From: Trypanosoma brucei
Taxonomy: Eukaryota
NCBI GenBank assembly: GCA_000002445.1
Contig: CM000207.1
Location: forward strand, 1,568,001 to 1,632,000
Direction of reading: 5' to 3'
DNA: 64,000 nt
The position numbers were made by a program, and so were the translations under genes. Below the pieces are notes generated by a model, which saw nothing but the letters and a program-made list of their open reading frames with translations, made no database searches and was not told the origin of the DNA. Positions within the stretch are counted from its first letter, which is position 1. Each line of letters starts with the position of its first letter. Below are positions 9,982 through 60,300 of the stretch, piece by piece.

Positions 9982-11469
9982 TTAATCGCTGTCATCGAAC
10001 CTTGTGGTATTACGGTTATTGTCGAAAGAAGGAGATGGCCGACCAAAGCCACGGCCTCCACGGTCCCCAAAGCCACGGCCTCCACGATCCCCAAAGCCGC
10101 GGCCTCCACGGTCCCCAAAGCCACGGCCTCCACGATCCCCAAAACCGCGGCCTCCACGGTCCCCAAAGCCACGGCCTCCACGATCCCCAAAGCCACGGCC
10201 TCCACGGTCCCCAAAGCCACGGCCTCCACGATCCCCAAAACCGCGGCCTCCACGATCCCCAAAACCACGGCCTCCACGATCCCCAAAACCACGGCCTCCA
10301 CGATCACCAAAGCCGCGGCCTCCACGATCACCGAAATCACGGCCTCGGCCGCGACCCCGTCCGTTTCCATTTTCATTTCGAATAAACTTTCGAACAGGCT
10401 CGTCTTCCCCCTCCTCGTCATCACCAATGGATCGCTTACCATTGGCATTCTGCTGCACCTCTTCTCCATCACTGTCAGACTCTGGCATAGGTTTCTTGGG
10501 AGCAACCTTTGGTGATGCTTTCACTGGTTTACGCACGGGCTCATCATCATCACTGTCAGACTCTGGCATAGGTTTCTTGGGAGCAACCTTTGGTGACCTC
10601 TTAGCTGGTTTACGCACGGGCTCATCATCATCACTGTCAGACTCTGGCATAGGTTTCTTGGGAGCAACCTTTGGTGACCTCTTAGCTGGTTTACGCACGG
10701 GCTCATCATCATCACTGTCAGACTCTGGCATAGGTTTCTTGGGAGCAACCTTTGGTGATGCCTTCACTGGTTTACGCACGGGTTCATCATCATCACTGTC
10801 AGACTCTGGCATAGGTTTCTTGGGAGCAACCTTTGGTGATGCTTTCACTGGTTTACGCACGGGCTCATCATCATCACTGTCAGACTCTGGCATAGGTTTC
10901 TTGGGAGCAACCTTTGGTGATGCCTTCACTGGTTTACGCACGGGTTCATCATCATCACTGTCAGACTCTGGCATAGGTTTCTTGGGAGCAACCTTTGGTG
11001 ACCTCTTAGCTGGTTTACGCACGGGCTCATCATCATCACTGTCAGACTCTGGCATAGGTTTCTTGGGAGCAACCTTTGGTGATGCCTTCACTGGTTTACG
11101 CACGGGCTCATCATCATCACTGTCAGACTCTGGCATAGGTTTCTTGGGAGCAACCTTTGGTGATGCTTTCACTGGTTTACGCACGGGCTCATCATCATCA
11201 CTGTCAGACTCTGGCATAGGTTTCTTGGGAGCAAACTTTGGTGACCTCTTAGCTGGTTTACGCACGGGCTCATCATCATCACTGTCAGTTTTATCTCGAA
11301 TATTCTTCGGTGCAGCAATGAGAGCCGAGAACTTCAGACCCCGGCCCGCCTTTTCCACTGAGGGATTACTTGCTTTCAAAGCATCCGCAGCTTCGATGTA
11401 GTTCGACTCTCTCAGATATCGGTATACCTGGGCATCAAGCTCATCTTTTGGAAGACGTAACACAGACAT
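9982..11469 (-). CDS. Nopp140-like nucleolar phosphoprotein (LisH motif + 20-aa acidic/basic repeats + C-terminal RGG/GAR domain), resembling trypanosome NoLP
   Basis: 495 aa. N-terminal LisH-like motif (LDAQVYRYLRESNYIEAADALKA). About 12 tandem 20-aa units (SDSDDDEPVRKP[V/A]K[A/R]SPKVAPKKPMPE). About 13 units of GDRGGRGF. ATG at 11467-11469. Confidence 0.65.
   Translation of the reverse strand: MSVLRLPKDELDAQVYRYLRESNYIEAADALKASNPSVEKAGRGLKFSALIAAPKNIRDKTDSDDDEPVRKPAKRSPKFAPKKPMPESDSDDDEPVRKPVKASPKVAPKKPMPESDSDDDEPVRKPVKASPKVAPKKPMPESDSDDDEPVRKPAKRSPKVAPKKPMPESDSDDDEPVRKPVKASPKVAPKKPMPESDSDDDEPVRKPVKASPKVAPKKPMPESDSDDDEPVRKPVKASPKVAPKKPMPESDSDDDEPVRKPAKRSPKVAPKKPMPESDSDDDEPVRKPAKRSPKVAPKKPMPESDSDDDEPVRKPVKASPKVAPKKPMPESDSDGEEVQQNANGKRSIGDDEEGEDEPVRKFIRNENGNGRGRGRGRDFGDRGGRGFGDRGGRGFGDRGGRGFGDRGGRGFGDRGGRGFGDRGGRGFGDRGGRGFGDRGGRGFGDRGGRGFGDRGGRGFGDRGGRGFGDRGGRGFGRPSPSFDNNRNTTRFDDSD
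10037..10340. repeat. 24-bp perfect tandem repeat (~12-13 copies), encodes the RGG/GAR domain
   Basis: Unit ccaaagccacggcctccacgrtcc repeats head-to-tail. It lies inside the C-terminal part of the minus-strand CDS. Confidence 0.85.
10440..11290. repeat. 60-bp tandem repeat (~13 copies, two alternating variants), encodes the acidic/basic 20-aa repeats
   Basis: Unit catcatcatcactgtcagactctggcataggtttcttgggagcaacctttggtga[tgc(t/c)ttcac|cctcttagc]tggtttacgcacgggct. Near-perfect copies inside the CDS. Confidence 0.85.
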
Positions 11470-43881: not shown

Positions 43882-44847
43882 TTATTTCTGAGCGGCACCC
43901 TCTCCTTTGCCTTGTCGAGCGCAATCATCGCACACCTTAACAGCCTCTGTAAATCCAACGGATGGGATGGTTGCCAGAGCTCCACTGCATTTGGCACACA
44001 CCAGCCGACCACAGTTACGGCAGTGATGCCGAGAGAAGCGCCCAATCGACCCACGGCAAACCATACAAGTGGTGGTAGAGTCATCCGGCTGCCAAACTTT
44101 TACGCGTCGCTGCTTCTGACGGAAACAAACCGTGCATTCCCACAAGGACGGTGGCAAACTAAACTTTGTACCACATTCAGGGCATTTGGGAGCATATATG
44201 CGGTTAAACAAGTCTTTGTTCACCTGTGAAGGGCCCTTCGCAGTGTGTTGAACCTTCTTTTGTTCTATAGTTTGTTTCACCTCACAAAACTCCAACGGAT
44301 GGGAGGCAACATATTCTTCCCAAGCTGCCTTCTGCGATTTTCGTTCCTCTTTGCGTCTTGCTTCTTCTGCAGCCAATGCCTCCTCCTCTGCCCGAAGTTG
44401 CCGTTCCCGCTCCCGTGCCTCACGACGGAGTCGGCGCCTCTCTTCCTTTTGTCTCCTTTCCTCTTCCCTAGCGAGTGCTGCCGCCTCCTCTGCAGCTTCC
44501 TGCTCTGCTAGCGCTGCGGCTTCTTCAGCTGCTAACTCTTCCTCTCGTCTCTTGCGGCGTTCCTCTCGGCGCCGCTCCCGTTCCTCTTCCTCTTCCCGTT
44601 GCCGCCTTTCCTCTTCTTCCTGTTGTCGCCTCTCCTCTTCTGCCTCCTGCTGCCGACGGAGTTCCTCCTCCTCCTCACGTTCCCGTTGCTGACGTAACAA
44701 CTCGGCTTTACGTCGCTCCGATCGTTCCCTGCGTTCCTGAAGGGCAGCACGAAGTTCACCCCAAATTTTCTCCGCATGATGGTCAGTGGCCATTTCGCTG
44801 TATATTTTTGCCATGTCCATTACTGAGACATGCTCGAGAAGGGCCAT
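43882..44847 (-). CDS. FYVE zinc-finger protein with Glu/Arg-rich coiled coil
   Basis: C-terminal FYVE signature (W...CMVC...RHHCRNCGRLVCAKC...VCDDC) preceded by a C4 module (CPECG...CTVC). The central ~120 aa is almost pure E/R/Q. ORF-track start 44883 is TTG; the first ATG is at 44845-44847. Confidence 0.75.
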   Translation of the reverse strand: MALLEHVSVMDMAKIYSEMATDHHAEKIWGELRAALQERRERSERRKAELLRQQREREEEEELRRQQEAEEERRQQEEEERRQREEEEERERRREERRKRREEELAAEEAAALAEQEAAEEAAALAREEERRQKEERRRLRREARERERQLRAEEEALAAEEARRKEERKSQKAAWEEYVASHPLEFCEVKQTIEQKKVQHTAKGPSQVNKDLFNRIYAPKCPECGTKFSLPPSLWECTVCFRQKQRRVKVWQPDDSTTTCMVCRGSIGRFSRHHCRNCGRLVCAKCSGALATIPSVGFTEAVKVCDDCARQGKGEGAAQK

Positions 44848-45268
44848 CTCATCCTCGGAGATATTCCCCTTCAGCGCCTTCAACAGGCGCTGAACGGGTT
44901 CTCCGAGATCCTCAAACCGGATAGTGCCTTTGGTGGACAGTGCGCCTGGTGGTATGAACTACCTTGTGAAAAGATACGGAGAATGAAGGCTGAAAGCAAT
45001 GAAACAGTTCACAATGAACAGGTGAAATAAGGAAGCGGACAAGCAATAATACACACACATATGTATTTATTTATTTTTTTTAGAAACTGGTAGTGAAGGG
45101 TAAACAGGTGTTACAGGGGGTCATATTCATTTTTTAAAAAAAAGTACACACAGAGGGAACAAACGCCATGATGTACACGTAGATCATAAGACCCTTCTGC
45201 CTCCTCTCCCCCTTTCTATTCCCCTTGGGTTCGCGAGCGTAAGAGTTACAACTTATTGTGGGACAAAC

Positions 45269-46135
45269 TTATTTGGCATCTTTTTCACTTTTCATATTAC
45301 TACCAATGTTACTCGCTGCCGATGCCGCAGTACTCCTCTTCACCCCCGCCCAAATATAATGACCGGTGTATAACCTACTGGAAAGACGGAAGCTTAAATG
45401 TAATTGACGTGAGGCAAAAGTCTTAAGAACGTCTGGACACGCTACAATATGCCGCATCTCTATTTGTGAAACACCATGGTTAAGCGCACATCTTGACAGA
45501 TCAGCGGGTGGAATAAACTTGGCCCAGTCGTGCGTTCCGGGTTCCACTATGCCAGTGATATGTTCCGCCACGACAATAAAGCTCAATGCGGTAAAAAGTG
45601 ACTTATCCATGGTGGAAATTACAAGCACGCCACCGGGTTTTGTTGCTGCGCAAATATCGTGCAAAAATGCCGCCGCATCGCTCACGTGTTCAATTACCTC
45701 CGAAGCCACTACAAGTTCAAATTGCCGTCCTTCTCCCTCCACCACCTCGTGAAGTGGCACACAACGATATGCAAGCGATGCTTGTGGAGTAATATCACGG
45801 AGAACTCGCTGACGCCGCTCCTCTGCTACGGCAATACTTTCCTTACACATGTCAATGCCCAATACATCACCACCTAATCGTGCAATGCTCTCAGAAAGAA
45901 TACCTCCACCACAACCAACATCCAATACACTCATTCCTGGTCTTATTCCTGCTGTAGCAGCCAAGTCGGATGGAGTAAATGCGCACCGGCATGCCTTATT
46001 TATGAACTCAACGCGTACAGGATTGAATTGATGTAATGTACGTAAGGGACCTTGCGGGCACCACCAATATTTCTGCAAGCGACTGAACTTAGAAATCTCA
46101 GCAGCTGATACGCCGCGAGCCATTGCTGAGGACAT
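45269..46135 (-). CDS. COQ3: Ubiquinone biosynthesis O-methyltransferase COQ3/UbiG (class I SAM-dependent methyltransferase)
   Basis: AEISKFSRLQKYWWCPQGPLRTLHQFNPVRVEFI is the UbiG/Coq3 N-terminal signature. SAM motif I VLDVGCGGGILSE. ORF-track start 46159 is TTG; ATGs at 46133-46135 and 46121-46123. Confidence 0.85.
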   Translation of the reverse strand: MSSAMARGVSAAEISKFSRLQKYWWCPQGPLRTLHQFNPVRVEFINKACRCAFTPSDLAATAGIRPGMSVLDVGCGGGILSESIARLGGDVLGIDMCKESIAVAEERRQRVLRDITPQASLAYRCVPLHEVVEGEGRQFELVVASEVIEHVSDAAAFLHDICAATKPGGVLVISTMDKSLFTALSFIVVAEHITGIVEPGTHDWAKFIPPADLSRCALNHGVSQIEMRHIVACPDVLKTFASRQLHLSFRLSSRLYTGHYIWAGVKRSTAASAASNIGSNMKSEKDAK

Positions 46136-46650
46136 GTGAAAACACCACGAAACCGACAAATAACAAATAATAGCCGTGGTAATATACCAAACTATAATAA
46201 TAATTATTATTATATATAGATGGATATATATAGATACAGATACAGATATATGCTACTGATATATTCGCTATGAACTTTCTTGTAACTAACCGCGTAGGGG
46301 CGCCGGATTCTTCTCTTTTTTTTTTCCTTTTCACCTTCCCCCCCTACCTTTTTTAGTCAAAAGTGCGAGGGTGATAATCACCTAACATTTAAAGGTGTCG
46401 CAACCATAGGGAGGAACAGAGAAAAAAAAGGCACAAAGACATTAATATATGAATAAATATATGTGAGGAGAACGTAGACAGGAGCAGAGGAAAAAGAAAA
46501 TAATCGCGAATAGTGAAGCAATCGAGATACCGTTACGGGGAAGTGTAAACGCATCGCCGTAAAAAGTCTACATTTTATCGTTTCTTTTCAAAAATTTTCT
46601 TCACCCTTCGTATTTGTGGGCGCGTGTGTGAGAAATTAGTTTCTTGTGTA

Positions 46651-51754: not shown

Positions 51755-54022
51755 TCATTTCAGCAAAGGGTAGTTTGTGTAACTGACACCATCCTTCAGG
51801 ATTCTAGAAATTGTTAAAGCAATATACGACATCCAAAAAATCACAAAGAACAAAATCTCACCACGCATCCAATACCGTGGCACAAACAGCATCGAGAAAC
51901 TCACAAGGGTCGCTAGCACTGCAGCTGCCATACCACCAAGTACCATTCTGTTGAGCCCTGAAAAGTTACGGGAAAATGGACTCTCAAATTGAGTGTGGAA
52001 AAGAGCAGGATCATGCTGACACGTGAGTAGAGAAACGGCATCCTGTTTCTGTCCATCAAAGAAATTTTGTTGCCACCAGCGGCGCAGTGCGATTCGCACC
52101 ACATCAAACGTGGCCGGTCCCCATTCCCCAGTTAGTAGAAAGTCCACAAAATGGGGGTCGCTTCCAGCGTACAACCTGGAAAGTGAAATTCCCAGTTCAA
52201 CCCACATATGCTTACATCTCTCTACGCTGCAATGAAACTCACCATTCCCTCGCGCTCCGTCACTTCCATCATCCTCATCTTCATACTCATCCTCATCGTC
52301 ACTGAGGTTCATTTCTTCCCCATGCCCAAGTACATACCTAATCATCTGAGGAAGAATGTTAATAGCAATCATGGACTGAACAAGGTTTGTCCGATCCAAG
52401 CAATCCAAACAGTTCACCCGAACGTAATGTTTCTGCTGGTGGACAAGAACCAACTCGCAAGTCGCCCCGTCAGCATCAGCGGTGCTGGGAACAGATGGAG
52501 GCGATGACCCACTCGATGGAGACGGATGTCCTTCATTGCTAAACTTCCAAAAATCTACGAACTGCGATCCACCTTCGTTTTTCCTATTTAGCAGAGTATC
52601 AACTTCCATTCGCATTAAGTTGTAAGGCGCATTTTTAGCCCTCCGTTCCTTTACGTTGTATTTTGTATAATAAACGTCAACGGGCCTTGAGAGAGCGCCA
52701 TTCCCTTCACGAAGTTTTAATGCCGCTGCTTCGAACGCCTTTGAAATTGGCAACTCGGCTTTGCTAAGCGACGTGGTGTCAAGACAATGGATAGATGTCA
52801 TCCCATCGAATAAAGCCAAAAGGGCATTTAAATGCAAGACCAGTTCATCAACCCCTGACGATGGCGAAGATATGGTAATCGTGGGGATGAATGTTAAATT
52901 CGCTGGCTGACTCCAGCAACGAGGCACAGAACCACGAAGAATGGTAAAGGCTGCCACGCGCTGCTTTTCATTAGCGGCCTTATCCCCCTCGTTTCCCGAC
53001 GCTAAAGGAAAGACCCAAAGCGTTGATGCAGAAAAGTTCGCTGCAATCCCACTACCAGCATTGTCAAGCCCACGCCGATTGTATCGCGTACCCGCCCACC
53101 GGTAACTAAGGCGATTGATGAGCAACATCTGAACACCCTCCTCGGGGGAAGTAGTCGCCTCCACAATACCCCTAATAAACGCAGGAACGTACACGTGGTA
53201 ATCACAATTCAGCGAAGCTACAACCTCATCAAACGCACCAAGCAGAGGCGAATTCCACTGGAAAACCACCCGCTGCGATATTTGTCCCTCGGAAGAAATC
53301 GCTAAAGAAAAGGCGCCACCACCCTTCACGCTGCTGCCATTCAACGACGGCGTGAGTACCTCCTTCATACCCTTCACAACATCACCAGGTTCCAGGGTTA
53401 AGTTCGCAGTCGGTGAATAGTAAAAATAAGAAGCACCGCAATGTTGCTCCGACTGCGCACAAAAGCTATCGACAACCCTACAATACTCTAAAACCATTTC
53501 TTCCCTGGCATGGCTTTGTGAAGAACCCTGCGAAGCGCTTGCTTCATCTTTCTCGCCTGAACCACCATCACCACCGTCCCCACTCTTATTCACGGACAGG
53601 TCAGACGCTGTTTCCGGTAGTCGAAGCCACGACAGCTGCTTTACCGCAAACACGTCGTGGGTCTCCCCAATAGTTAATGTGGTAATACGTTCCCGTTCAG
53701 AAACATACAAAAGTATCGACGCAGAGCCAATGCGAAGAACACCAAATAAAGCATAACAGGGAATACAACGGACCGGTGTAAACTCTTCAAATCCAGAGGA
53801 GGAAGCATCGGACATAACTCCATCATCAACCACATCACAAACCGCCTTTTCAGAATCTTTGCTAACATGAGAAACGGCATCATCCGCAGCCACATTACTC
53901 GGCAACACGAAACATTGACGCTCCAAATTCCAAATAAGTCTGGGATAAGAATCATCATTAGGGACAAAAGAGGCAGATTCACCATCAATAACGATATTTC
54001 CAAAAAAATCCCCTACAGACAT
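51755..54022 (-). CDS. SAC1-like phosphoinositide phosphatase (Sac domain, C-terminal TM anchors)
   Basis: 755 aa. Catalytic CX5R(T/S) motif RVNCLDCLDRTNLVQ. Sac-domain blocks (RYNRRGLDNAGSGIAANF). Two C-terminal TM helices. ATG at 54020-54022. Confidence 0.8.
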   Translation of the reverse strand: MSVGDFFGNIVIDGESASFVPNDDSYPRLIWNLERQCFVLPSNVAADDAVSHVSKDSEKAVCDVVDDGVMSDASSSGFEEFTPVRCIPCYALFGVLRIGSASILLYVSERERITTLTIGETHDVFAVKQLSWLRLPETASDLSVNKSGDGGDGGSGEKDEASASQGSSQSHAREEMVLEYCRVVDSFCAQSEQHCGASYFYYSPTANLTLEPGDVVKGMKEVLTPSLNGSSVKGGGAFSLAISSEGQISQRVVFQWNSPLLGAFDEVVASLNCDYHVYVPAFIRGIVEATTSPEEGVQMLLINRLSYRWAGTRYNRRGLDNAGSGIAANFSASTLWVFPLASGNEGDKAANEKQRVAAFTILRGSVPRCWSQPANLTFIPTITISSPSSGVDELVLHLNALLALFDGMTSIHCLDTTSLSKAELPISKAFEAAALKLREGNGALSRPVDVYYTKYNVKERRAKNAPYNLMRMEVDTLLNRKNEGGSQFVDFWKFSNEGHPSPSSGSSPPSVPSTADADGATCELVLVHQQKHYVRVNCLDCLDRTNLVQSMIAINILPQMIRYVLGHGEEMNLSDDEDEYEDEDDGSDGARGNGEFHCSVERCKHMWVELGISLSRLYAGSDPHFVDFLLTGEWGPATFDVVRIALRRWWQQNFFDGQKQDAVSLLTCQHDPALFHTQFESPFSRNFSGLNRMVLGGMAAAVLATLVSFSMLFVPRYWMRGEILFFVIFWMSYIALTISRILKDGVSYTNYPLLK

Positions 54023-54321
54023 AATTCACCTACAACTAAAAATAAAAAACAATAAATGTCAAACTATTTCCTAAGGGGTAAAGATAATTATGCACTCACC
54101 AACATAAATCTCCAAAAAAAAAAGGAAATATAAATACAAGAAAAAGCAAAAAAAAAACAAAAACTCGCTACAAACAAAACAACTACATAAAATAGAATAA
54201 ACAAAAAATTAAAAGAACAATATAACAAACATTATCCAGCGGAAAAAACAAAGACTTACACAAAAAAAAAACATCAAACAACAACCTAATCCACAAAGCA
54301 AAAAGTTATTTTCAAAAAAGA

Positions 54322-57300
54322 ACACCCAAACACTTACTCAGAAGTCAAACAGACAAAATTAACTGATGTCAGCATCAAATAAATTCAGCTGAAACACGGA
54401 TTTGACAGACTCATCATTGACACAAAACAAGGTAAGAGCAACACCACCAAACAGTTCAGAGCAGGAATAAGAAGGAGGGCGGCATGTACATATGTGTGTG
54501 GGGTAATGTTGGTGTAATGGGGAAAAGGTGAGAAAGTTACCGTACGCCTCGGACGCAGGACGCACGCGGCTGGAATGTTGTGCGGCGCCCCAGAAACTAT
54601 CGTAACACTCGTGCTCAATCCATGTTCGGGTGTGTGTCATAAGACCGTCGTAAGTGGTTTATCGTCATGGGCAAAGTACAAGGTGTATCCGCAGTGACCA
54701 AAGAGACAATGCAGAATCTGGCAAAGAGAAAGGGCGAAAGCCAAGCAATAAGGGTGGTTTCAAATGTAAAACAAGGAAAAAGGGAGGGGAGGGGGGTGAC
54801 AGTAACCACACACATGGTATGATAACGTGCCACGACGAAACCAAACACCATCAGCCGGGGAAAGAAGAATATTCTTTAAATGGGTTATTGTCATTCAAAT
54901 ACACTCAGAGACTCCAGTCCATTGATGTCATCAAGTAGCGCGTTTACGACAGGTTAGGTGTACCGCAAAGCAACTCTCGGAGCGCACCAAGATGGCCTAC
55001 GGCATGCAATCACAAAACGGCCGCTCCATGGCTAAAGCCCCTTTTTCATTTTTGTTGTCCATAAAAACACTGAAGGGAGAAAACAGAGGAAGGAGAAGGT
55101 AACAATATCAAACAAGAGAAGAGTGTGCACTAACCAATAACCTCCGTTATAATTCTCGGACCACGTGAGTGTGCAAACAAGGACACAGAAATGTTAGCCC
55201 AAGACACAACTCCAATGTGGGCCTTCCCCTACGGTTACTGCCCCAACACATAATTGTAATTATAATAATAACCATAATCATAATTATACACCTGACGTCA
55301 AGTGAAAAAAACTCGGCGCGTCAGAAACAATATTAGCGTCACGGGTTCTGTTCAGATGTTGCTGTTAATTTGTTATATTAGGTATTCATCACACGCACCT
55401 ACTCGCCGAACTGCTAACCCCACACGTCAGCTCGGAGCGAAAGATAGAGTTCACAGTTGCATCGACATAGTGTGTTTCCGTTCCGCCTACGCGGTATCGG
55501 AAGCTCTTTCATCAGTGGCGGGGAACGACGGATGGGGGATAAACACTTAACAGAGGGGAAAATGTGCATGAAATAGGTAATACAATAAGAGAAGGGGGAA
55601 GTAAACAGGGAATCACGGAAGTAAGGTTCAGTGCAGGTCTGTGTTATGGTGTCCTCACAGGTTCTCGGTGCAATTTGAACATATTGTACATCGTCACCTA
55701 CTACATTCCCTCTCGACTACCCCGCCACTCACAACATTATACTGCCGCCCACATTAGCCATTCCAAACTCACTGCGGTAATGTATCCTCGTGTGTGCTTG
55801 CGTGTATATGTGTATATATGTGTATGTGTATGGAGTCGCGCCCAAGTGCCCGAGGTTGAGTACCTGAAGGACACGATAGCCATCAGACCCGAAAGGTGAT
55901 TTGTGTTGTATAGATCCCTCATGAATATGACGTCGGAACATGTTTGGACGCTCAACTAGTTTCCATCATCGGCCACACACATACACAAACATACAAGCAC
56001 ACACACACACACACACACTCACATATATATATATATATATACATACACGACAAACCTCCGCACACCCAAACACTTACTCAGAAGTCAAACAGACAAAATT
56101 AACTGATGTCAGCATCAAATAAATTCAGCTGAAACACGGATTTGACAGACTCATCATTGACACAAAACAAGGTAAGAGCAACACCACCAAACAGTTCAGA
56201 GCAGGAATAAGAAGGAGGGCGGCATGTACATATGTGTGTGGGGTAATGTTGGTGTAATGGGGAAAAGGTGAGAAAGTTACCGTACGCCTCGGACGCAGGA
56301 CGCACGCGGCTGGAATGTTGTGCGGCGCCCCAGAAACTATCGTAACACTCGTGCTCAATCCATGTTCGGGTGTGTGTCATAAGACCGTCGTAAGTGGTTT
56401 ATCGTCATGGGCAAAGTACAAGGTGTATCCGCAGTGACCAAAGAGACAATGCAGAATCTGGCAAAGAGAAAGGGCGAAAGCCAAGCAATAAGGGTGGTTT
56501 CAAATGTAAAACAAGGAAAAAGGGAGGGGAGGGGGGTGACAGTAACCACACACATGGTATGATAACGTGCCACGACGAAACCAAACACCATCAGCCGGGG
56601 AAAGAAGAATATTCTTTAAATGGGTTATTGTCATTCAAATACACTCAGAGACTCCAGTCCATTGATGTCATCAAGTAGCGCGTTTACGACAGGTTAGGTG
56701 TACCGCAAAGCAACTCTCGGAGCGCACCAAGATGGCCTACGGCATGCAATCACAAAACGGCCGCTCCATGGCTAAAGCCCCTTTTTCATTTTTGTTGTCC
56801 ATAAAAACACTGAAGGGAGAAAACAGAGGAAGGAGAAGGTAACAATATCAAACAAGAGAAGAGTGTGCACTAACCAATAACCTCCGTTATAATTCTCGGA
56901 CCACGTGAGTGTGCAAACAAGGACACAGAAATGTTAGCCCAAGACACAACTCCAATGTGGGCCTTCCCCTACGGTTACTGCCCCAACACATAATTGTAAT
57001 TATAATAATAACCATAATCATAATTATACACCTGACGTCAAGTGAAAAAAACTCGGCGCGTCAGAAACAATATTAGCGTCACGGGTTCTGTTCAGATGTT
57101 GCTGTTAATTTGTTATATTAGGTATTCATCACACGCACCTACTCGCCGAACTGCTAACCCCACACGTCAGCTCGGAGCGAAAGATAGAGTTCACAGTTGC
57201 ATCGACATAGTGTGTTTCCGTTCCGCCTACGCGGTATCGGAAGCTCTTTCATCAGTGGCGGGGAACGACGGATGGGGGATAAACACTTAACAGAGGGGAA

Positions 57301-60300
57301 AATGTGCATGGAATAGGTAATACAATAAGAGAAGGGGGAAGTAAACAGGGAATCACGGAAGTAAGGTTCAGTGCAGGTCTGTGTTATGGTGTCCTCACAG
57401 GTTCTCGGTGCAATTTGAACATATTGTACATCGTCACCCACTACATTCCCTCTCGACTACCCCGCCACTCACAACATTATACTGCCGCCCACATTAGCCA
57501 TTCCAAACTCACTGCGGTAATGTATCCTCGTGTGTGCTTGCGTGTATATGTGTATATATGTGTATATATGTGTATGTGTATGGAGTCGCGCCCAAGTGCC
57601 CGAGGTTGAGTACCTGAAGGACACGATAGCCATCAGACCCGAAAGGTGATTTGTGTTGTATAGATCCCTCATGAATATGACGTCGGAACATGTTTGGACG
57701 CTCAACTAGTTTCCATCATCGGCCACACACATACACAAACATACAAGCACACACACATACACACACTCACATATATATATATATATATATATACATACAC
57801 GACAAACCTCCGCACACCCAAACACTTACTCAGAAGTCAAACAGACAAAATTAACTGATGTCAGCATCAAATAAATTCAGCTGAAACACGGATTTGACAG
57901 ACTCATCATTGACACAAAACAAGGTAAGAGCAACACCACCAAACAGTTCAGAGCAGGAATAAGAAGGAGGGCGGCATGTACATATGTGTGTGGGGTAATC
58001 TTGGTGTAATGGGGAAAAGGTGAGAAAGTTACCGTACGCCTCGGACGCAGGACGCACGCGGCTGGAATGTTGTGCGGCGCCCCAGAAACTATCGTAACAC
58101 TCGTGCTCAATCCATGTTCGGGTGTGTGTCATAAGACCGTCGTAAGTGGTTTATCGTCATGGGCAAAGTACAAGGTGTATCCGCAGTGACCAAAGAGACA
58201 ATGCAGAATCTGGCAAAGAGAAAGGGCGAAAGCCAAGCAATAAGGGTGGTTTCAAATGTAAAACAAGGAAAAAGGGAGGGGAGGGGGGTGACAGTAACCA
58301 CACACATGGTATGATAACGTGCCACGACGAAACCAAACACCATCAGCCGGGGAAAGAAGAATATTCTTTAAATGGGTTATTGTCATTCAAATACACTCAG
58401 AGACTCCAGTCCATTGATGTCATCAAGTAGCGCGTTTACGACAGGTTAGGTGTACCGCAAAGCAACTCTCGGAGCGCACCAAGATGGCCTACGGCATGCA
58501 ATCACAAAACGGCCGCTCCATGGCTAAAGCCCCTTTTTCATTTTTGTTGTCCATAAAAACACTGAAGGGAGAAAACAGAGGAAGGAGAAGGTAACAATAT
58601 CAAACAAGAGAAGAGTGTGCACTAACCAATAACCTCCGTTATAATTCTCGGACCACGTGAGTGTGCAAACAAGGACACAGAAATGTTAGCCCAAGACACA
58701 ACTCCAATGTGGGCCTTCCCCTACGGTTACTGCCCCAACACATAATTGTAATTATAATAATAACCATAATCATAATTATACACCTGACGTCAAGTGAAAA
58801 AAACTCGGCGCGTCAGAAACAATATTAGCGTCACGGGTTCTGTTCAGATGTTGCTGTTAATTTGTTATATTAGGTATTCATCACACGCACCTACTCGCCG
58901 AACTGCTAACCCCACACGTCAGCTCGGAGCGAAAGATAGAGTTCACAGTTGCATCGACATAGTGTGTTTCCGTTCCGCCTACGCGGTATCGGAAGCTCTT
59001 TCATCAGTGGCGGGGAACGACGGATGGGGGATAAACACTTAACAGAGGGGAAAATGTGCATGGAATAGGTAATACAATAAGAAAAGGGGGAAGTAAACAG
59101 GGAATCACGGAAGTAAGGTTCAGTGCAGGTCTGTGTTATGGTGTCCTCACAGGTTCTCGGTGCAATTTGAACATATTGTACATCGTCACCCACTACATTC
59201 CCTCTCGACTACCCCGCCACTCACAACATTATACTGCCGCCCACATTAGCCATTCCAAACTCACTGCGGTAATGTATCCTCGTGTGTGCTTGCGTGTATA
59301 TGTGTATATATGTGTATGTGTATGGAGTCGCGCCCAAGTGCCCGAGGTTGAGTACCTGAAGGACACGATAGCCATCAGACCCGAAAGGTGATTTGTGTTG
59401 TATAGATCCCTCATGAATATGACGTCGGAACATGTTTGGACGCTCAACTAGTTTCCATCATCGGCCACACACATACACAAACATACAAGCACACACACAC
59501 ACACACACACTCACATATATATATATATATATACATATATATACACGACAAACCTCCGCACACCCAAACACTTACTCAGAAGTCAAACAGACAAAATTAA
59601 CTGATGTCAGCATCAAATAAATTCAGCTGAAACACGGATTTGACAGACTCATCATTGACACAAAACAAGGTAAGAGCAACACCACCAAACAGTTCAGAGC
59701 AGGAATAAGAAGGAGGGCGGCATGTACATATGTGTGTGGGGTAATCTTGGTGTAATGGGGAAAAGGTGAGAAAGTTACCGTACGCCTCGGACGCAGGACG
59801 CACGCGGCTGGAATGTTGTGCGGCGCCCCAGAAACTATCGTAACACTCGTGCTCAATCCATGTTCGGGTGTGTGTCATAAGACCGTCGTAAGTGGTTTAT
59901 CGTCATGGGCAAAGTACAAGGTGTATCCGCAGTGACCAAAGAGACAATGCAGAATCTGGCAAAGAGAAAGGGCGAAAGCCAAGCAATAAGGGTGGTTTCA
60001 AATGTAAAACAAGGAAAAAGGGAGGGGAGGGGGGTGACAGTAACCACACACATGGTATGATAACGTGCCACGACGAAACCAAACACCATCAGCCGGGGAA
60101 AGAAGAATATTCTTTAAATGGGTTATTGTCATTCAAATACACTCAGAGACTCCAGTCCATTGATGTCATCAAGTAGCGCGTTTACGACAGGTTAGGTGTA
60201 CCGCAAAGCAACTCTCGGAGCGCACCAAGATGGCCTACGGCATGCAATCACAAAACGGCCGCTCCATGGCTAAAGCCCCTTTTTCATTTTTGTTGTCCAT

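What the first reader, a model, noticed from the sequence alone, without database searches (positions are those of the whole stretch)
55318..55518. Two adjacent C/D-box-like elements on the minus strand in the middle of the repeat unit
Both elements are read from the reverse complement of plus ~55315-55520.

**Element 1.** ...ccac-UGAUGA-aagagcttccgataccgcgtaggcggaacggaaacacactatgtcgatgcaactgtgaactctatctttcgctccgag-CUGA-cgtgtgg...
- C box: plus tcatca, 55509-55514.
- D box: plus tcag, 55427-55430.
- Length about 95 nt.
- Flanking ccac/gtgg could form a short terminal stem.

**Element 2.** Follows 30 nt downstream: ...gcgt-GUGAUGA-atacctaatataacaaattaacagcaacat-CUGA-acagaacccgtgacgctaatattgttt-CUGA-cgcgcc.
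- Perfect RUGAUGA C box: plus 55386-55392.
- Internal D'-like CUGA.
- D box: plus tcag, 55321-55324.
- Flanking gcg/cgc complementarity.

Two closely spaced C/D-like genes on the same strand are the typical layout of kinetoplastid snoRNA clusters. The 3' end of element 2 overlaps an 8-bp perfect palindrome, tgacgtca.
Basis: partly seen in the sequence, partly recalled or inferred. Interest (0 to 1): 0.5.

Follow-up and report, generated by a model that had tools for sequence, protein, structure and literature searches.

The report
Two known trypanosome C/D snoRNA genes
The two elements are real box C/D small nucleolar RNA genes, but both are already described in Trypanosoma brucei (TB9Cs2C5 and TB9Cs2C6) and guide known ribose methylations of ribosomal RNA, so the finding is correct but ordinary.

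Summary
All box coordinates are exact, and both elements are identical in all five copies in the window. Such C-box/D-box/terminal-stem combinations are rare in shuffled sequence.

The window carries the Trypanosoma brucei-group chromosome-9 snoRNA cluster TB9Cs2. It consists of about 1.74-kb tandem units with genes on the minus strand and an Rfam TB9Cs2H1 hit in every unit.

- **Element 1 (55519-55424) is TB9Cs2C5.** Published primers for its 5' and 3' ends match exactly. Its D-box guide pairs with LSU-alpha 1025-1034+ and places G1028 at the +5 position, which is the published Gm1028. This snoRNA has been silenced experimentally and shown to act in srRNA1/srRNA4 processing.
- **Element 2 (about 55399-55315) is TB9Cs2C6.** Its D' guide UUAACAGCAACA pairs with SSU 711-722 and places U714 at +5. 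Um714 is the site published for TB9Cs2C6. Every other named member of the cluster maps elsewhere in the unit.

The syntenic T. cruzi and T. conorhini-like clusters keep the boxes, these two guides and the terminal stems, while the spacers diverge in length and sequence.

Two details of the finding need correction. The TGACGTCA palindrome lies 20 nt downstream of element 2's D box rather than overlapping the RNA. The second (D) guide of element 2 is not conserved and has no evident rRNA target.

Verdict: already known, low interest.

The parts
55424..55519 (-). TB9Cs2C5 box C/D snoRNA gene (element 1), about 96 nt
   Evidence: Published primers match exactly. They are 'Sense TB9Cs2C5 (1-20 nt) GCCACTGATGAAAGAGCTTC' and the antisense primer ...ACGTCAGCTCGGAGCGAAAG. 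The element is identical in 5 copies. It is conserved in T. cruzi and in L003.
55509..55514 (-). C box of TB9Cs2C5 (cUGAUGA)
   Evidence: Read directly. It is GUGAUGA in T. cruzi.
55432..55444 (-). D-box guide of TB9Cs2C5 (UCUUUCGCUCCGA)
   Evidence: It has a 13-nt perfect complement in the LSU of 15 kinetoplastid-type rDNA contigs. The T. brucei LSU-alpha letters at 1025-1034 are UCGGAGCGAA, with Gm1028 at the +5 position. The guide is invariant in T. cruzi and L003.
55427..55430 (-). D box of TB9Cs2C5 (CUGA)
   Evidence: Read directly. Invariant in the orthologues.
55315..55399 (-). TB9Cs2C6 box C/D snoRNA gene (element 2), about 85 nt. The ends are inferred from the terminal stem.
   Evidence: Its +5 target is the published TB9Cs2C6 site Um714. 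All other named cluster members map elsewhere in the unit. The terminal stem GGUGCGU/ACGCGCC is predicted by folding. It is identical in 5 copies.
55386..55392 (-). C box of TB9Cs2C6 (GUGAUGA)
   Evidence: Read directly. The GAUGA core is invariant in the orthologues, where the box reads ACGAUGA.
55357..55368 (-). D' guide of TB9Cs2C6 (UUAACAGCAACA)
   Evidence: It is complementary to SSU 711-722, UGUUGCUGUUAA. The T. brucei letters for 710-721 are. The same segment occurs in 119 SSU-bearing contigs. It is 100% conserved in T. cruzi and L003.
55352..55355 (-). D' box of TB9Cs2C6 (CUGA)
   Evidence: Read directly. Invariant in the orthologues.
55336..55342 (-). Probable C' box of TB9Cs2C6 (GUGACGC)
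   Evidence: The UGACGC core is invariant in three species, although the flanking positions vary. The assignment rests on position only and is an inference.
55325..55335 (-). D-box 'guide' of TB9Cs2C6 (UAAUAUUGUUU), apparently an orphan
   Evidence: It is not conserved: AAAUCGUGUUG in T. cruzi and GAGUCGUGUUG in L003. No convincing rRNA complement was found in the proxy rDNA contigs.
55321..55324 (-). D box of TB9Cs2C6 (CUGA)
   Evidence: Read directly. Invariant, together with the following CGC.

Best explanation
[quoted passage not shown] They are TB9Cs2C5 (element 1) and TB9Cs2C6 (element 2).

**How they are made and act.** From established knowledge of trypanosomatid snoRNA clusters, both are transcribed on the minus strand as part of a polycistronic precursor. 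They are trimmed to about 96 nt and about 85 nt. They assemble through their C/D (and C'/D') boxes with SNU13, NOP56, NOP58 and the methyltransferase NOP1/fibrillarin. Each base-pairs with pre-rRNA so that the nucleotide opposite the fifth guide position upstream of the D or D' box is 2'-O-methylated.

**TB9Cs2C5.** It uses the 13-nt guide upstream of its D box to methylate G1028 of LSU-alpha (Gm1024 in older numbering). According to published silencing and cross-linking work, it also contacts srRNA1/ITS3 and the 3' ETS and is needed for release of srRNA1 and srRNA4.

**TB9Cs2C6.** It uses the 12-nt guide upstream of its D' box to methylate U714 of the SSU rRNA. Its second guide position, upstream of the D box, appears unused.

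**What is shown and what is inferred.**
- Shown here: sequence identity with the published primers, box architecture, guide/target register, and cross-species conservation.
- Taken from the literature: the methylation sites, the silencing phenotypes and RNP sedimentation.
- Inferred: polycistronic processing and the exact 5' and 3' ends of C6.
For: **Cluster identity**
- Rfam finds TB9Cs2H1 in all six units at 84-87 bits.
- Published T. brucei primers for the TB9Cs2C3 and TB9Cs2C5 constructs match the window with 0 mismatches, once per unit, in the five units that hold each site.

**Element 1 = C5**
- The primers for its 5' (1-20 nt) and 3' ends match exactly.
- The D guide is UCUUUCGCUCCGA|g|CUGA, set against LSU-alpha 1025-1034 UCGGmAGCGAA. 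G1028 falls at +5 and is listed as Gm guided by TB9Cs2C5.
- In a complete rDNA contig (L019, annotated by Rfam), the C3 and C5 target sites lie 103 nt apart. That equals the distance from G925 to G1028 in T. brucei.
- Silencing reduces this Gm and causes accumulation of LSU precursors.

**Element 2 = C6**
- The D' guide is UUAACAGCAACA|u|CUGA, set against SSU 710-721 CUGUUmGCUGUUA. U714 falls at +5 and is listed as Um guided by TB9Cs2C6.
- Guides of the other candidates in the unit match the published targets of C1, C2, C3, C4 and C7. C6 is the only name left.

**Conservation**
- A syntenic tandem cluster lies upstream of the same Syja_N gene in T. cruzi (L002) and in L003.
- The boxes, the C6 D' guide and the C5 D guide are invariant there.
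- The C6 terminal stem changes from CUGCG/CGCAG to GUGCG/CGCGC, which includes a compensatory C-G to G-C swap.
- The distance from the C5 D box to the C6 C box is 34 nt in T. brucei and about 130 nt in T. cruzi.

**Chance control:**
Against: - No sequence labelled 'TB9Cs2C6' could be read. The paper that defines the cluster (Liang et al. 2005, PMC1370750) and the RNA-seq supplements are not held. The name of element 2 therefore rests on target identity plus elimination.
- Rfam has no family for either RNA. Element 2 gives only sub-threshold hits: SNORD96 at 22.7 bits against 43, and snoR38 at 22.7 bits against 45.
- The published text places the srRNA1 interaction of C5 'directly upstream of D box'. 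My scan shows the same guide matching LSU-alpha G1028. I could not check the T. brucei srRNA1 sequence to see whether both pair there.
- Folding energies of both RNAs are no better than shuffles. This is expected for C/D snoRNAs, but it means structure gives no independent support beyond the terminal stems.
- The five in-window copies are identical and so are the spacers. The within-array comparison therefore carries no information.
Confidence: 0.96

Rival explanations
1. The box motifs are chance occurrences in repeat-unit spacer DNA, and no RNA is made from these positions.
For: C and D boxes are short. Overall folding energy is no better than shuffles. Rfam gathering thresholds are not reached.
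Against: - Shuffles almost never give such candidates.
- Published northern and chimera primers for TB9Cs2C5 match exactly.
- Both guides hit mapped Nm sites in the +5 register.
- Boxes and guides are invariant in T. cruzi and L003, while the spacers are unalignable.
Confidence: 0.01
2. Element 2 is a real C/D snoRNA but not the one published as TB9Cs2C6. It could be an unnamed paralogue that also targets U714, with the named C6 lying elsewhere.
For: I could not read a published C6 sequence. The assignment is by target and elimination.
Against: - The 1.74-kb unit was read in full.
- Every other candidate maps to another published target.
- No second guide for U714 was seen in the unit.
- Published tables list a single guide, TB9Cs2C6, for Um714.
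Confidence: 0.03
3. Element 1 acts mainly as a pre-rRNA processing chaperone, and its methylation-guide activity is secondary. This is a nuance rather than a true rival.
For: Published work reports the following:
- co-sedimentation with early 90S-type complexes;
- cross-links to ITS3/srRNA1 and the 3' ETS;
- loss of srRNA1 and srRNA4 on silencing;
- no detectable Gm126 on srRNA1.

An internal hairpin downstream of the C box is retained in T. cruzi.
Against: - Gm1028 is present and drops on silencing.
- The primers listed as the C5 silencing construct span 55307-55784. That stretch also contains C4 and C6, so the processing phenotype may not be attributable to C5 alone.
Confidence: 0.4

Closest known systems
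TB9Cs2C5 (T. brucei box C/D snoRNA; Chikne et al., NAR 2019, PMC6411936)
   Same: The published end primers match exactly. The D guide places LSU-alpha G1028 (older numbering G1024) at +5. The length is about 96 nt, the D' box is degenerate, and it lies in the TB9Cs2 tandem array.
   Different: Nothing detectable. Element 1 is this gene.
TB9Cs2C6 (T. brucei box C/D snoRNA guiding SSU Um714; tables in PMC9283944 and PMC10662448)
   Same: The D' guide places SSU U714 at +5 with 12 contiguous Watson-Crick pairs. It lies in the TB9Cs2 cluster and is the only unit member not assigned to another published target.
   Different: The published sequence could not be read, so identity is inferred. The second (D) guide has no published or detectable target.
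Generic eukaryotic box C/D methylation-guide snoRNAs (for example SNORD96 and plant snoR38, the best sub-threshold Rfam hits)
   Same: The C/D'/C'/D architecture, the terminal stem, the +5 rule and the length of about 85 nt.
   Different: There is no family-level sequence homology, with 22.7 bits against gathering scores of 43-45. The target site and the clustered, tandemly repeated, polycistronic gene organisation are typical of trypanosomatids.

Membership tests
Box C/D snoRNA | C box (RUGAUGA) near the 5' end and D box (CUGA) near the 3' end | tested here: met
   Element 1 has cUGAUGA at 55514-55509 and CUGA at 55430-55427. Element 2 has GUGAUGA at 55392-55386 and CUGA at 55324-55321. The box cores are invariant in the orthologues.
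Box C/D snoRNA | Short terminal stem that brings the C and D boxes together | tested here: met
   Element 2 pairs GGUGCGU with ACGCGCC, 7 bp in the minimum-free-energy fold. The T. cruzi orthologue pairs CUGCG with CGCAG, with one compensatory pair change. Element 1 pairs CCAC with GUGG (4 bp), and T. cruzi pairs GCCGC with GCGGC.
Box C/D snoRNA | Guide of at least 10 nt complementary to the target RNA, ending next to D or D', with the modified nucleotide opposite guide position 5 | tested here: met
   The element 2 D' guide forms 12 bp with SSU 711-722, with U714 at +5. The element 1 D guide forms 13 bp with LSU-alpha from 1025, with G1028 at +5. The rRNA letters come from PMC10662448 supplementary file 13 and from rDNA contigs.
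Box C/D snoRNA | 2'-O-methylation present at the predicted site and dependent on the snoRNA | not testable with these tools
   From the literature: Um714 and Gm1028 were mapped by RiboMeth-seq and by other methods. Gm1024/1028 is reduced on TB9Cs2C5 silencing. No C6-specific depletion was found in the papers read.
Box C/D snoRNA | Expressed as a stable small RNA bound by fibrillarin/NOP1, NOP56, NOP58 and SNU13 | not testable with these tools
   From the literature for C5: northern probes, sucrose-gradient RNPs and abundance in small-RNP RNA-seq. For C6 there is only the attribution in the Nm tables.
TB9Cs2 cluster (T. brucei chromosome 9 snoRNA array) | Contains TB9Cs2H1 and the published C-series snoRNAs in a tandem repeat | tested here: met
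   There are six TB9Cs2H1 hits at 84-87 bits with spacings of 1740-1752 nt. The C3 and C5 construct primers match with 0 mismatches. The guides of C1, C2, C3, C4 and C7 were recognised in the unit.
An Rfam C/D family (SNORD96, snoR38, snoZ266) | Score at or above the family's gathering threshold | tested here: not met
   The scores are 22.7, 22.7 and 18.9 bits against thresholds of 43, 45 and 43. These hits reflect generic C/D architecture only. Neither element is filed under these families.

The most novel reading that the evidence does not exclude
The non-conserved 11-nt segment between the C' box and the D box of TB9Cs2C6 (UAAUAUUGUUU, 55335-55325) might be a lineage-specific guide for a non-rRNA or pre-rRNA spacer target in T. 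brucei.

Alternatively, it might be a self-pairing element that masks the D' guide. In T. cruzi the equivalent segment plus the D box reads UGUUGCUG. That copies the rRNA target and is predicted to pair with the D' guide.
Probability: 0.08. Interest if true: 0.3.

Novelty: already known. Interest (0 to 1): 0.08.

Why it matters
It matters little beyond annotation. It shows that the first-stage reader can recognise genuine C/D snoRNA genes from raw sequence.

It also gives window coordinates for two published T. brucei snoRNAs and for their seven neighbours in the unit.

One practical point may interest specialists. The primers listed for the published TB9Cs2C5 and TB9Cs2C3 silencing constructs delimit fragments of about 480 and 530 bp. 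These fragments also cover neighbouring snoRNAs (C4 and C6 for the first, C4 for the second). Phenotypes ascribed to single snoRNAs may therefore be composite.

Tried and rejected
- **Rfam.** At gathering thresholds it finds only TB9Cs2H1. At E<=10 it gives only generic sub-threshold C/D hits for element 2 and nothing for element 1. No Rfam family exists for these RNAs.
- **Defining papers.** I tried to read Liang et al. 2005 by PubMed id and two PMC ids, and it is not held. No supplements are held for PMC3273796 or PMC13487219. No published C6 sequence was therefore seen.
- **Within-array comparison.** The five copies are identical and the spacers almost so, which makes it uninformative.
- **Synteny.** The T. 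grayi-like contig (L005) and L004 do not reach the relevant part of the cluster. L004 starts inside C7, and L005 has no H1 hit.
- **rRNA target for the C6 D guide.** I searched 119 SSU/rDNA contigs for T. brucei, T. cruzi and L003 versions of the guide, allowing G-U pairs. Only 9-11-bp matches with wobble pairs turned up, with no shared site. It is treated as an orphan.
- **TGACGTCA palindrome as part of the RNA or as a conserved signal.** It lies outside the RNA and is absent in T. cruzi.
- **Thermodynamic stability as evidence.** The z-scores are about 0.
Full report
**1. The observation**

Reading the minus strand of 55200-55650 confirms every coordinate in the finding.
- Element 1 has UGAUGA at 55514-55509 and CUGA at 55430-55427, flanked by CCAC and GUGG.
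- Element 2 has GUGAUGA at 55392-55386, an internal CUGA at 55355-55352 and a terminal CUGA at 55324-55321. It is flanked by GGUGCG and CGCGCC.

The region lies in a tandem array of about 1740-1752-bp units occupying 54.2-64.0 kb. The copies are identical except for one base 9 nt upstream of element 1 in one copy.

I ran a motif control: UGAUGA, then 50-120 nt, then CUGA, with a terminal stem of at least 4 bp.
- The real unit contains three candidates.
- 500 dinucleotide-preserving shuffles gave a mean of 0.07, and 0.4% reached three.
- With the stricter RUGAUGA form, the array's minus strand has 0.51 candidates per kb. The other 54 kb has 0.02 per kb or less.

The TGACGTCA palindrome sits at 55300-55293, 20 nt beyond the D box.

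**2. Context**

Rfam at curated thresholds finds the trypanosomatid H/ACA-like snoRNA TB9Cs2H1 once per unit, at 84-87 bits against a gathering score of 45. This identifies the array as the TB9Cs2 snoRNA cluster of Trypanosoma brucei.

Primers published for T. brucei TB9Cs2C3 and TB9Cs2C5 constructs match the window with no mismatch, once per unit, in the five units that hold each site.

The adjacent 755-aa Syja_N (synaptojanin-like) protein is found with identical sequence in an NCBI assembly of a T. brucei-group genome. From memory, GCA_001457755.2 is T. equiperdum OVI. Its closest named homologues are from T. congolense, T. cruzi and T. rangeli.

**3. Element 1 is TB9Cs2C5**

Supplementary Table S1 of Chikne et al. 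2019 (PMC6411936) lists two primers:
- 'Sense TB9Cs2C5 (1-20 nt) GCCACTGATGAAAGAGCTTC'.
- An antisense primer ending ACGTCAGCTCGGAGCGAAAG.

They match 55519-55500 and 55443-55424 on the minus strand exactly. This bounds a 96-nt RNA.

The 13 nt upstream of its D box (UCUUUCGCUCCGA, 55444-55432) have a perfect complement in the LSU of 15 kinetoplastid-type rDNA contigs. The per-nucleotide table in PMC10662448 gives T. brucei LSU-alpha 1025-1034 as U-C-G-Gm-A-G-C-G-A-A, with Gm1028 attributed to TB9Cs2C5. In the guide-target duplex G1028 lies opposite the fifth guide nucleotide upstream of the D box, which is the canonical register.

As an internal check I used L019, a complete rDNA contig with SSU, 5.8S and LSU confirmed by Rfam. 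There the predicted C3 and C5 sites are 103 nt apart, exactly the G925 to G1028 distance in T. brucei.

The literature shows that silencing lowers this Gm (called Gm1024 there), causes 5.9/5.1/3.9-kb LSU precursors to accumulate and reduces srRNA1 and srRNA4. It also shows that the RNA cross-links to ITS3/srRNA1 and the 3' ETS.

**4. Element 2 is TB9Cs2C6**

Published Nm tables assign these targets to the cluster:

| snoRNA | Published target |
|---|---|
| C1 | LSU-beta C1413 |
| C2 | LSU-alpha A742, A743, C760 |
| C3 | LSU-alpha G925 (and U914) |
| C4 | SSU G1895 |
| C5 | LSU-alpha G1028 |
| C6 | SSU U714 |
| C7 | LSU-beta G659, U685 |

I read the whole unit and matched the guides of each candidate to rDNA contigs. 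That placed the other members as follows, all on the minus strand:

| Member | Coordinates | Basis |
|---|---|---|
| C3 | 55973-55880 | guide to ACCCGAAAGG |
| C4 | about 55700-55628 | guide to CAGGUCUGUG |
| C7 | 54935-54850 | guides to CGGGGAAAGAAGA and GACUCCAGUC, 26 nt apart as for 659 and 685 |
| C1 | about 54672-54592 | guide to AGACCGUCGU |
| C2 | 54420-54340 | guides to UGAAACACGGA and AGUCAAACAGAC, 17 nt apart as for 743 and 760 |

Only C6 remains for element 2.

Independently, the D' guide of element 2 (UUAACAGCAACA, 55368-55357) is the exact complement of UGUUGCUGUUAA. The PMC10662448 table gives T. brucei SSU 710-721 as C-U-G-U-Um-G-C-U-G-U-U-Am, with Um714 attributed to TB9Cs2C6. 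U714 falls at +5 from the D' box.

I took the 20-mer TGTTGCTGTTAAAGGGTTCG from my memory of kinetoplastid 18S. A metagenome scan found it in 119 contigs with SSU context. One of them is L019, whose SSU is 2180 nt long. That retrieval is partly circular for the 12-nt core, so the T. brucei letters are the decisive evidence.

**5. Comparative evidence**

The orthologous Syja_N gene in T. cruzi (L002) is preceded by a tandem array with TB9Cs2H1 repeating about every 1543 bp. A second trypanosome contig (L003, GCA_003719485.1, which I believe is T. conorhini) carries the end of the same array.

BLAST and alignment show orthologues of every unit member in the same order.

For element 2 the invariant blocks are as follows:
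- the GAUGA core of the C box;
- the D' guide plus D' box (UUAACAGCAACAUCUGA);
- a UGACGC block that I read as the C' box;
- the D box plus CGC.

The terminal stem is kept with a compensatory change: CUGCG/CGCAG in T. cruzi and GUGCG/CGCGC in T. brucei.

For element 1, the C box, the D guide plus D box (GUGAACUCnAUCUUUCGCUCCGAnCUGA) and an internal hairpin are kept.

In contrast, the distance from the C5 D box to the C6 C box is 34 nt in T. brucei and about 130 nt in T. cruzi, and that spacer is unalignable. It had to come from other species, because concerted evolution has homogenised the in-window copies.

**6. What is not supported**

The 11 nt between the putative C' box and the D box of element 2 differ between species: UAAUAUUGUUU, AAAUCGUGUUG and GAGUCGUGUUG. 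They have no shared or convincing rRNA complement in the proxy rDNA set. No second target is published for C6. I treat this as an unused guide position.

Rfam has no family for either RNA, and element 2's best hits are far below threshold. Folding energies are indistinguishable from shuffles, as is usual for C/D snoRNAs.

**7. Mechanism**

- **Shown here:** gene identity, box architecture, guide register and conservation.
- **From established knowledge of trypanosomatid snoRNA clusters and of C/D RNPs:** polycistronic transcription and processing, assembly with SNU13, NOP56, NOP58 and NOP1, and methylation of the nucleotide paired to guide position 5.
- **From the cited papers:** Um714 and Gm1028 exist, and C5 also functions in LSU processing.

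**8. Verdict**

Novelty: already known. Interest is low.

The only loose ends are the orphan D-side segment of C6, and the fact that the published silencing-construct primers span several snoRNAs of the unit.

Noticed in passing
window 54335-56075 (minus strand), repeated in each unit: The unit holds nine snoRNA genes in this order:
- C3 (55973-55880)
- C4 (about 55700-55628)
- C5
- C6
- H1 (55223-55154)
- a second single-hairpin AGA-box candidate, presumably TB9Cs2H2 (about 55045-54960)
- C7 (54935-54850)
- C1 (about 54672-54592, with degenerate AUGACGA and CUGG boxes)
- C2 (54420-54340)

The assignments are by guide/target match to rDNA contigs and by the published target lists. All are conserved in T. 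cruzi.
   Followed up: partly
window 55307-55784 and 55545-56074: The primers listed as 'silencing construct' for TB9Cs2C5 and TB9Cs2C3 in PMC6411936 Table S1 delimit fragments of about 478 and 530 bp. These also contain C4 and C6 (C5 construct) or C4 (C3 construct), and the two fragments overlap by about 240 bp. If these fragments are the dsRNA triggers, the reported phenotypes may not be specific to a single snoRNA.
   Followed up: partly
window 55325-55335 (minus); L002 4408-4424: The D-side guide of C6 is not conserved. In T. cruzi and L003 the segment plus the D box reads UGUUGCUG, the same sequence as the rRNA target. It is predicted to pair with the snoRNA's own D' guide. In T. brucei a different pairing (AACAAAUUAA with UAAUAUUGUU) is predicted. 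This could be chance or a self-masking structure.
   Followed up: partly
window 55478-55503 (minus); L002 4145-4174: TB9Cs2C5 has an internal hairpin just downstream of the C box. It reads UUCCG..CCGC-GUAG-GCGG..CGGAA in T. brucei and UUUUUGACGCC-AUGU-GGCGU..AAAAC in T. cruzi. It is predicted in both species despite sequence differences. This is unusual for a plain methylation guide, and the RNA has a published processing role.
   Followed up: no
window 55293-55300: The 8-bp palindrome TGACGTCA (a CRE-like motif) follows a T7 run 20 nt downstream of the C6 D box. It is present in every unit but absent from the T. cruzi orthologous position. It is probably fortuitous.
   Followed up: yes
window 55974-56050, 57545-57575, 57724-57773, 59466-59545 and equivalents: (CA)n/(TA)n/(TATG)n microsatellites between C2 and C3 account for the unit-length differences of 1740, 1746 and 1752 bp. 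They produce spurious sub-threshold mir-297 hits.
   Followed up: yes
window 54232-54335: This is the edge of the array. The first-unit copy of the stretch that holds the microsatellites (54234-54533) is only 78-80% identical to the later copies. The motif AAGTGTTTGGGTGT marks the unit boundary at 54335 and 56075. The array abuts the start of the Syja_N gene (51755-54022, minus). In T. cruzi a further called ORF of 364 aa lies between them.
   Followed up: no
window 10043-11288: Two long tandem repeats lie far from the snoRNA array: 24 bp x 12.7 copies and 81 bp x 10.1 copies, at 91-93% identity. They are probably a repetitive protein-coding segment.
   Followed up: no
window 1-54000: Gene order downstream of the Syja_N gene (a methyltransferase at 45269-46159 and a FYVE-type protein at 43882-44883) is syntenic with T. 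cruzi and two other trypanosome contigs.
   Followed up: partly
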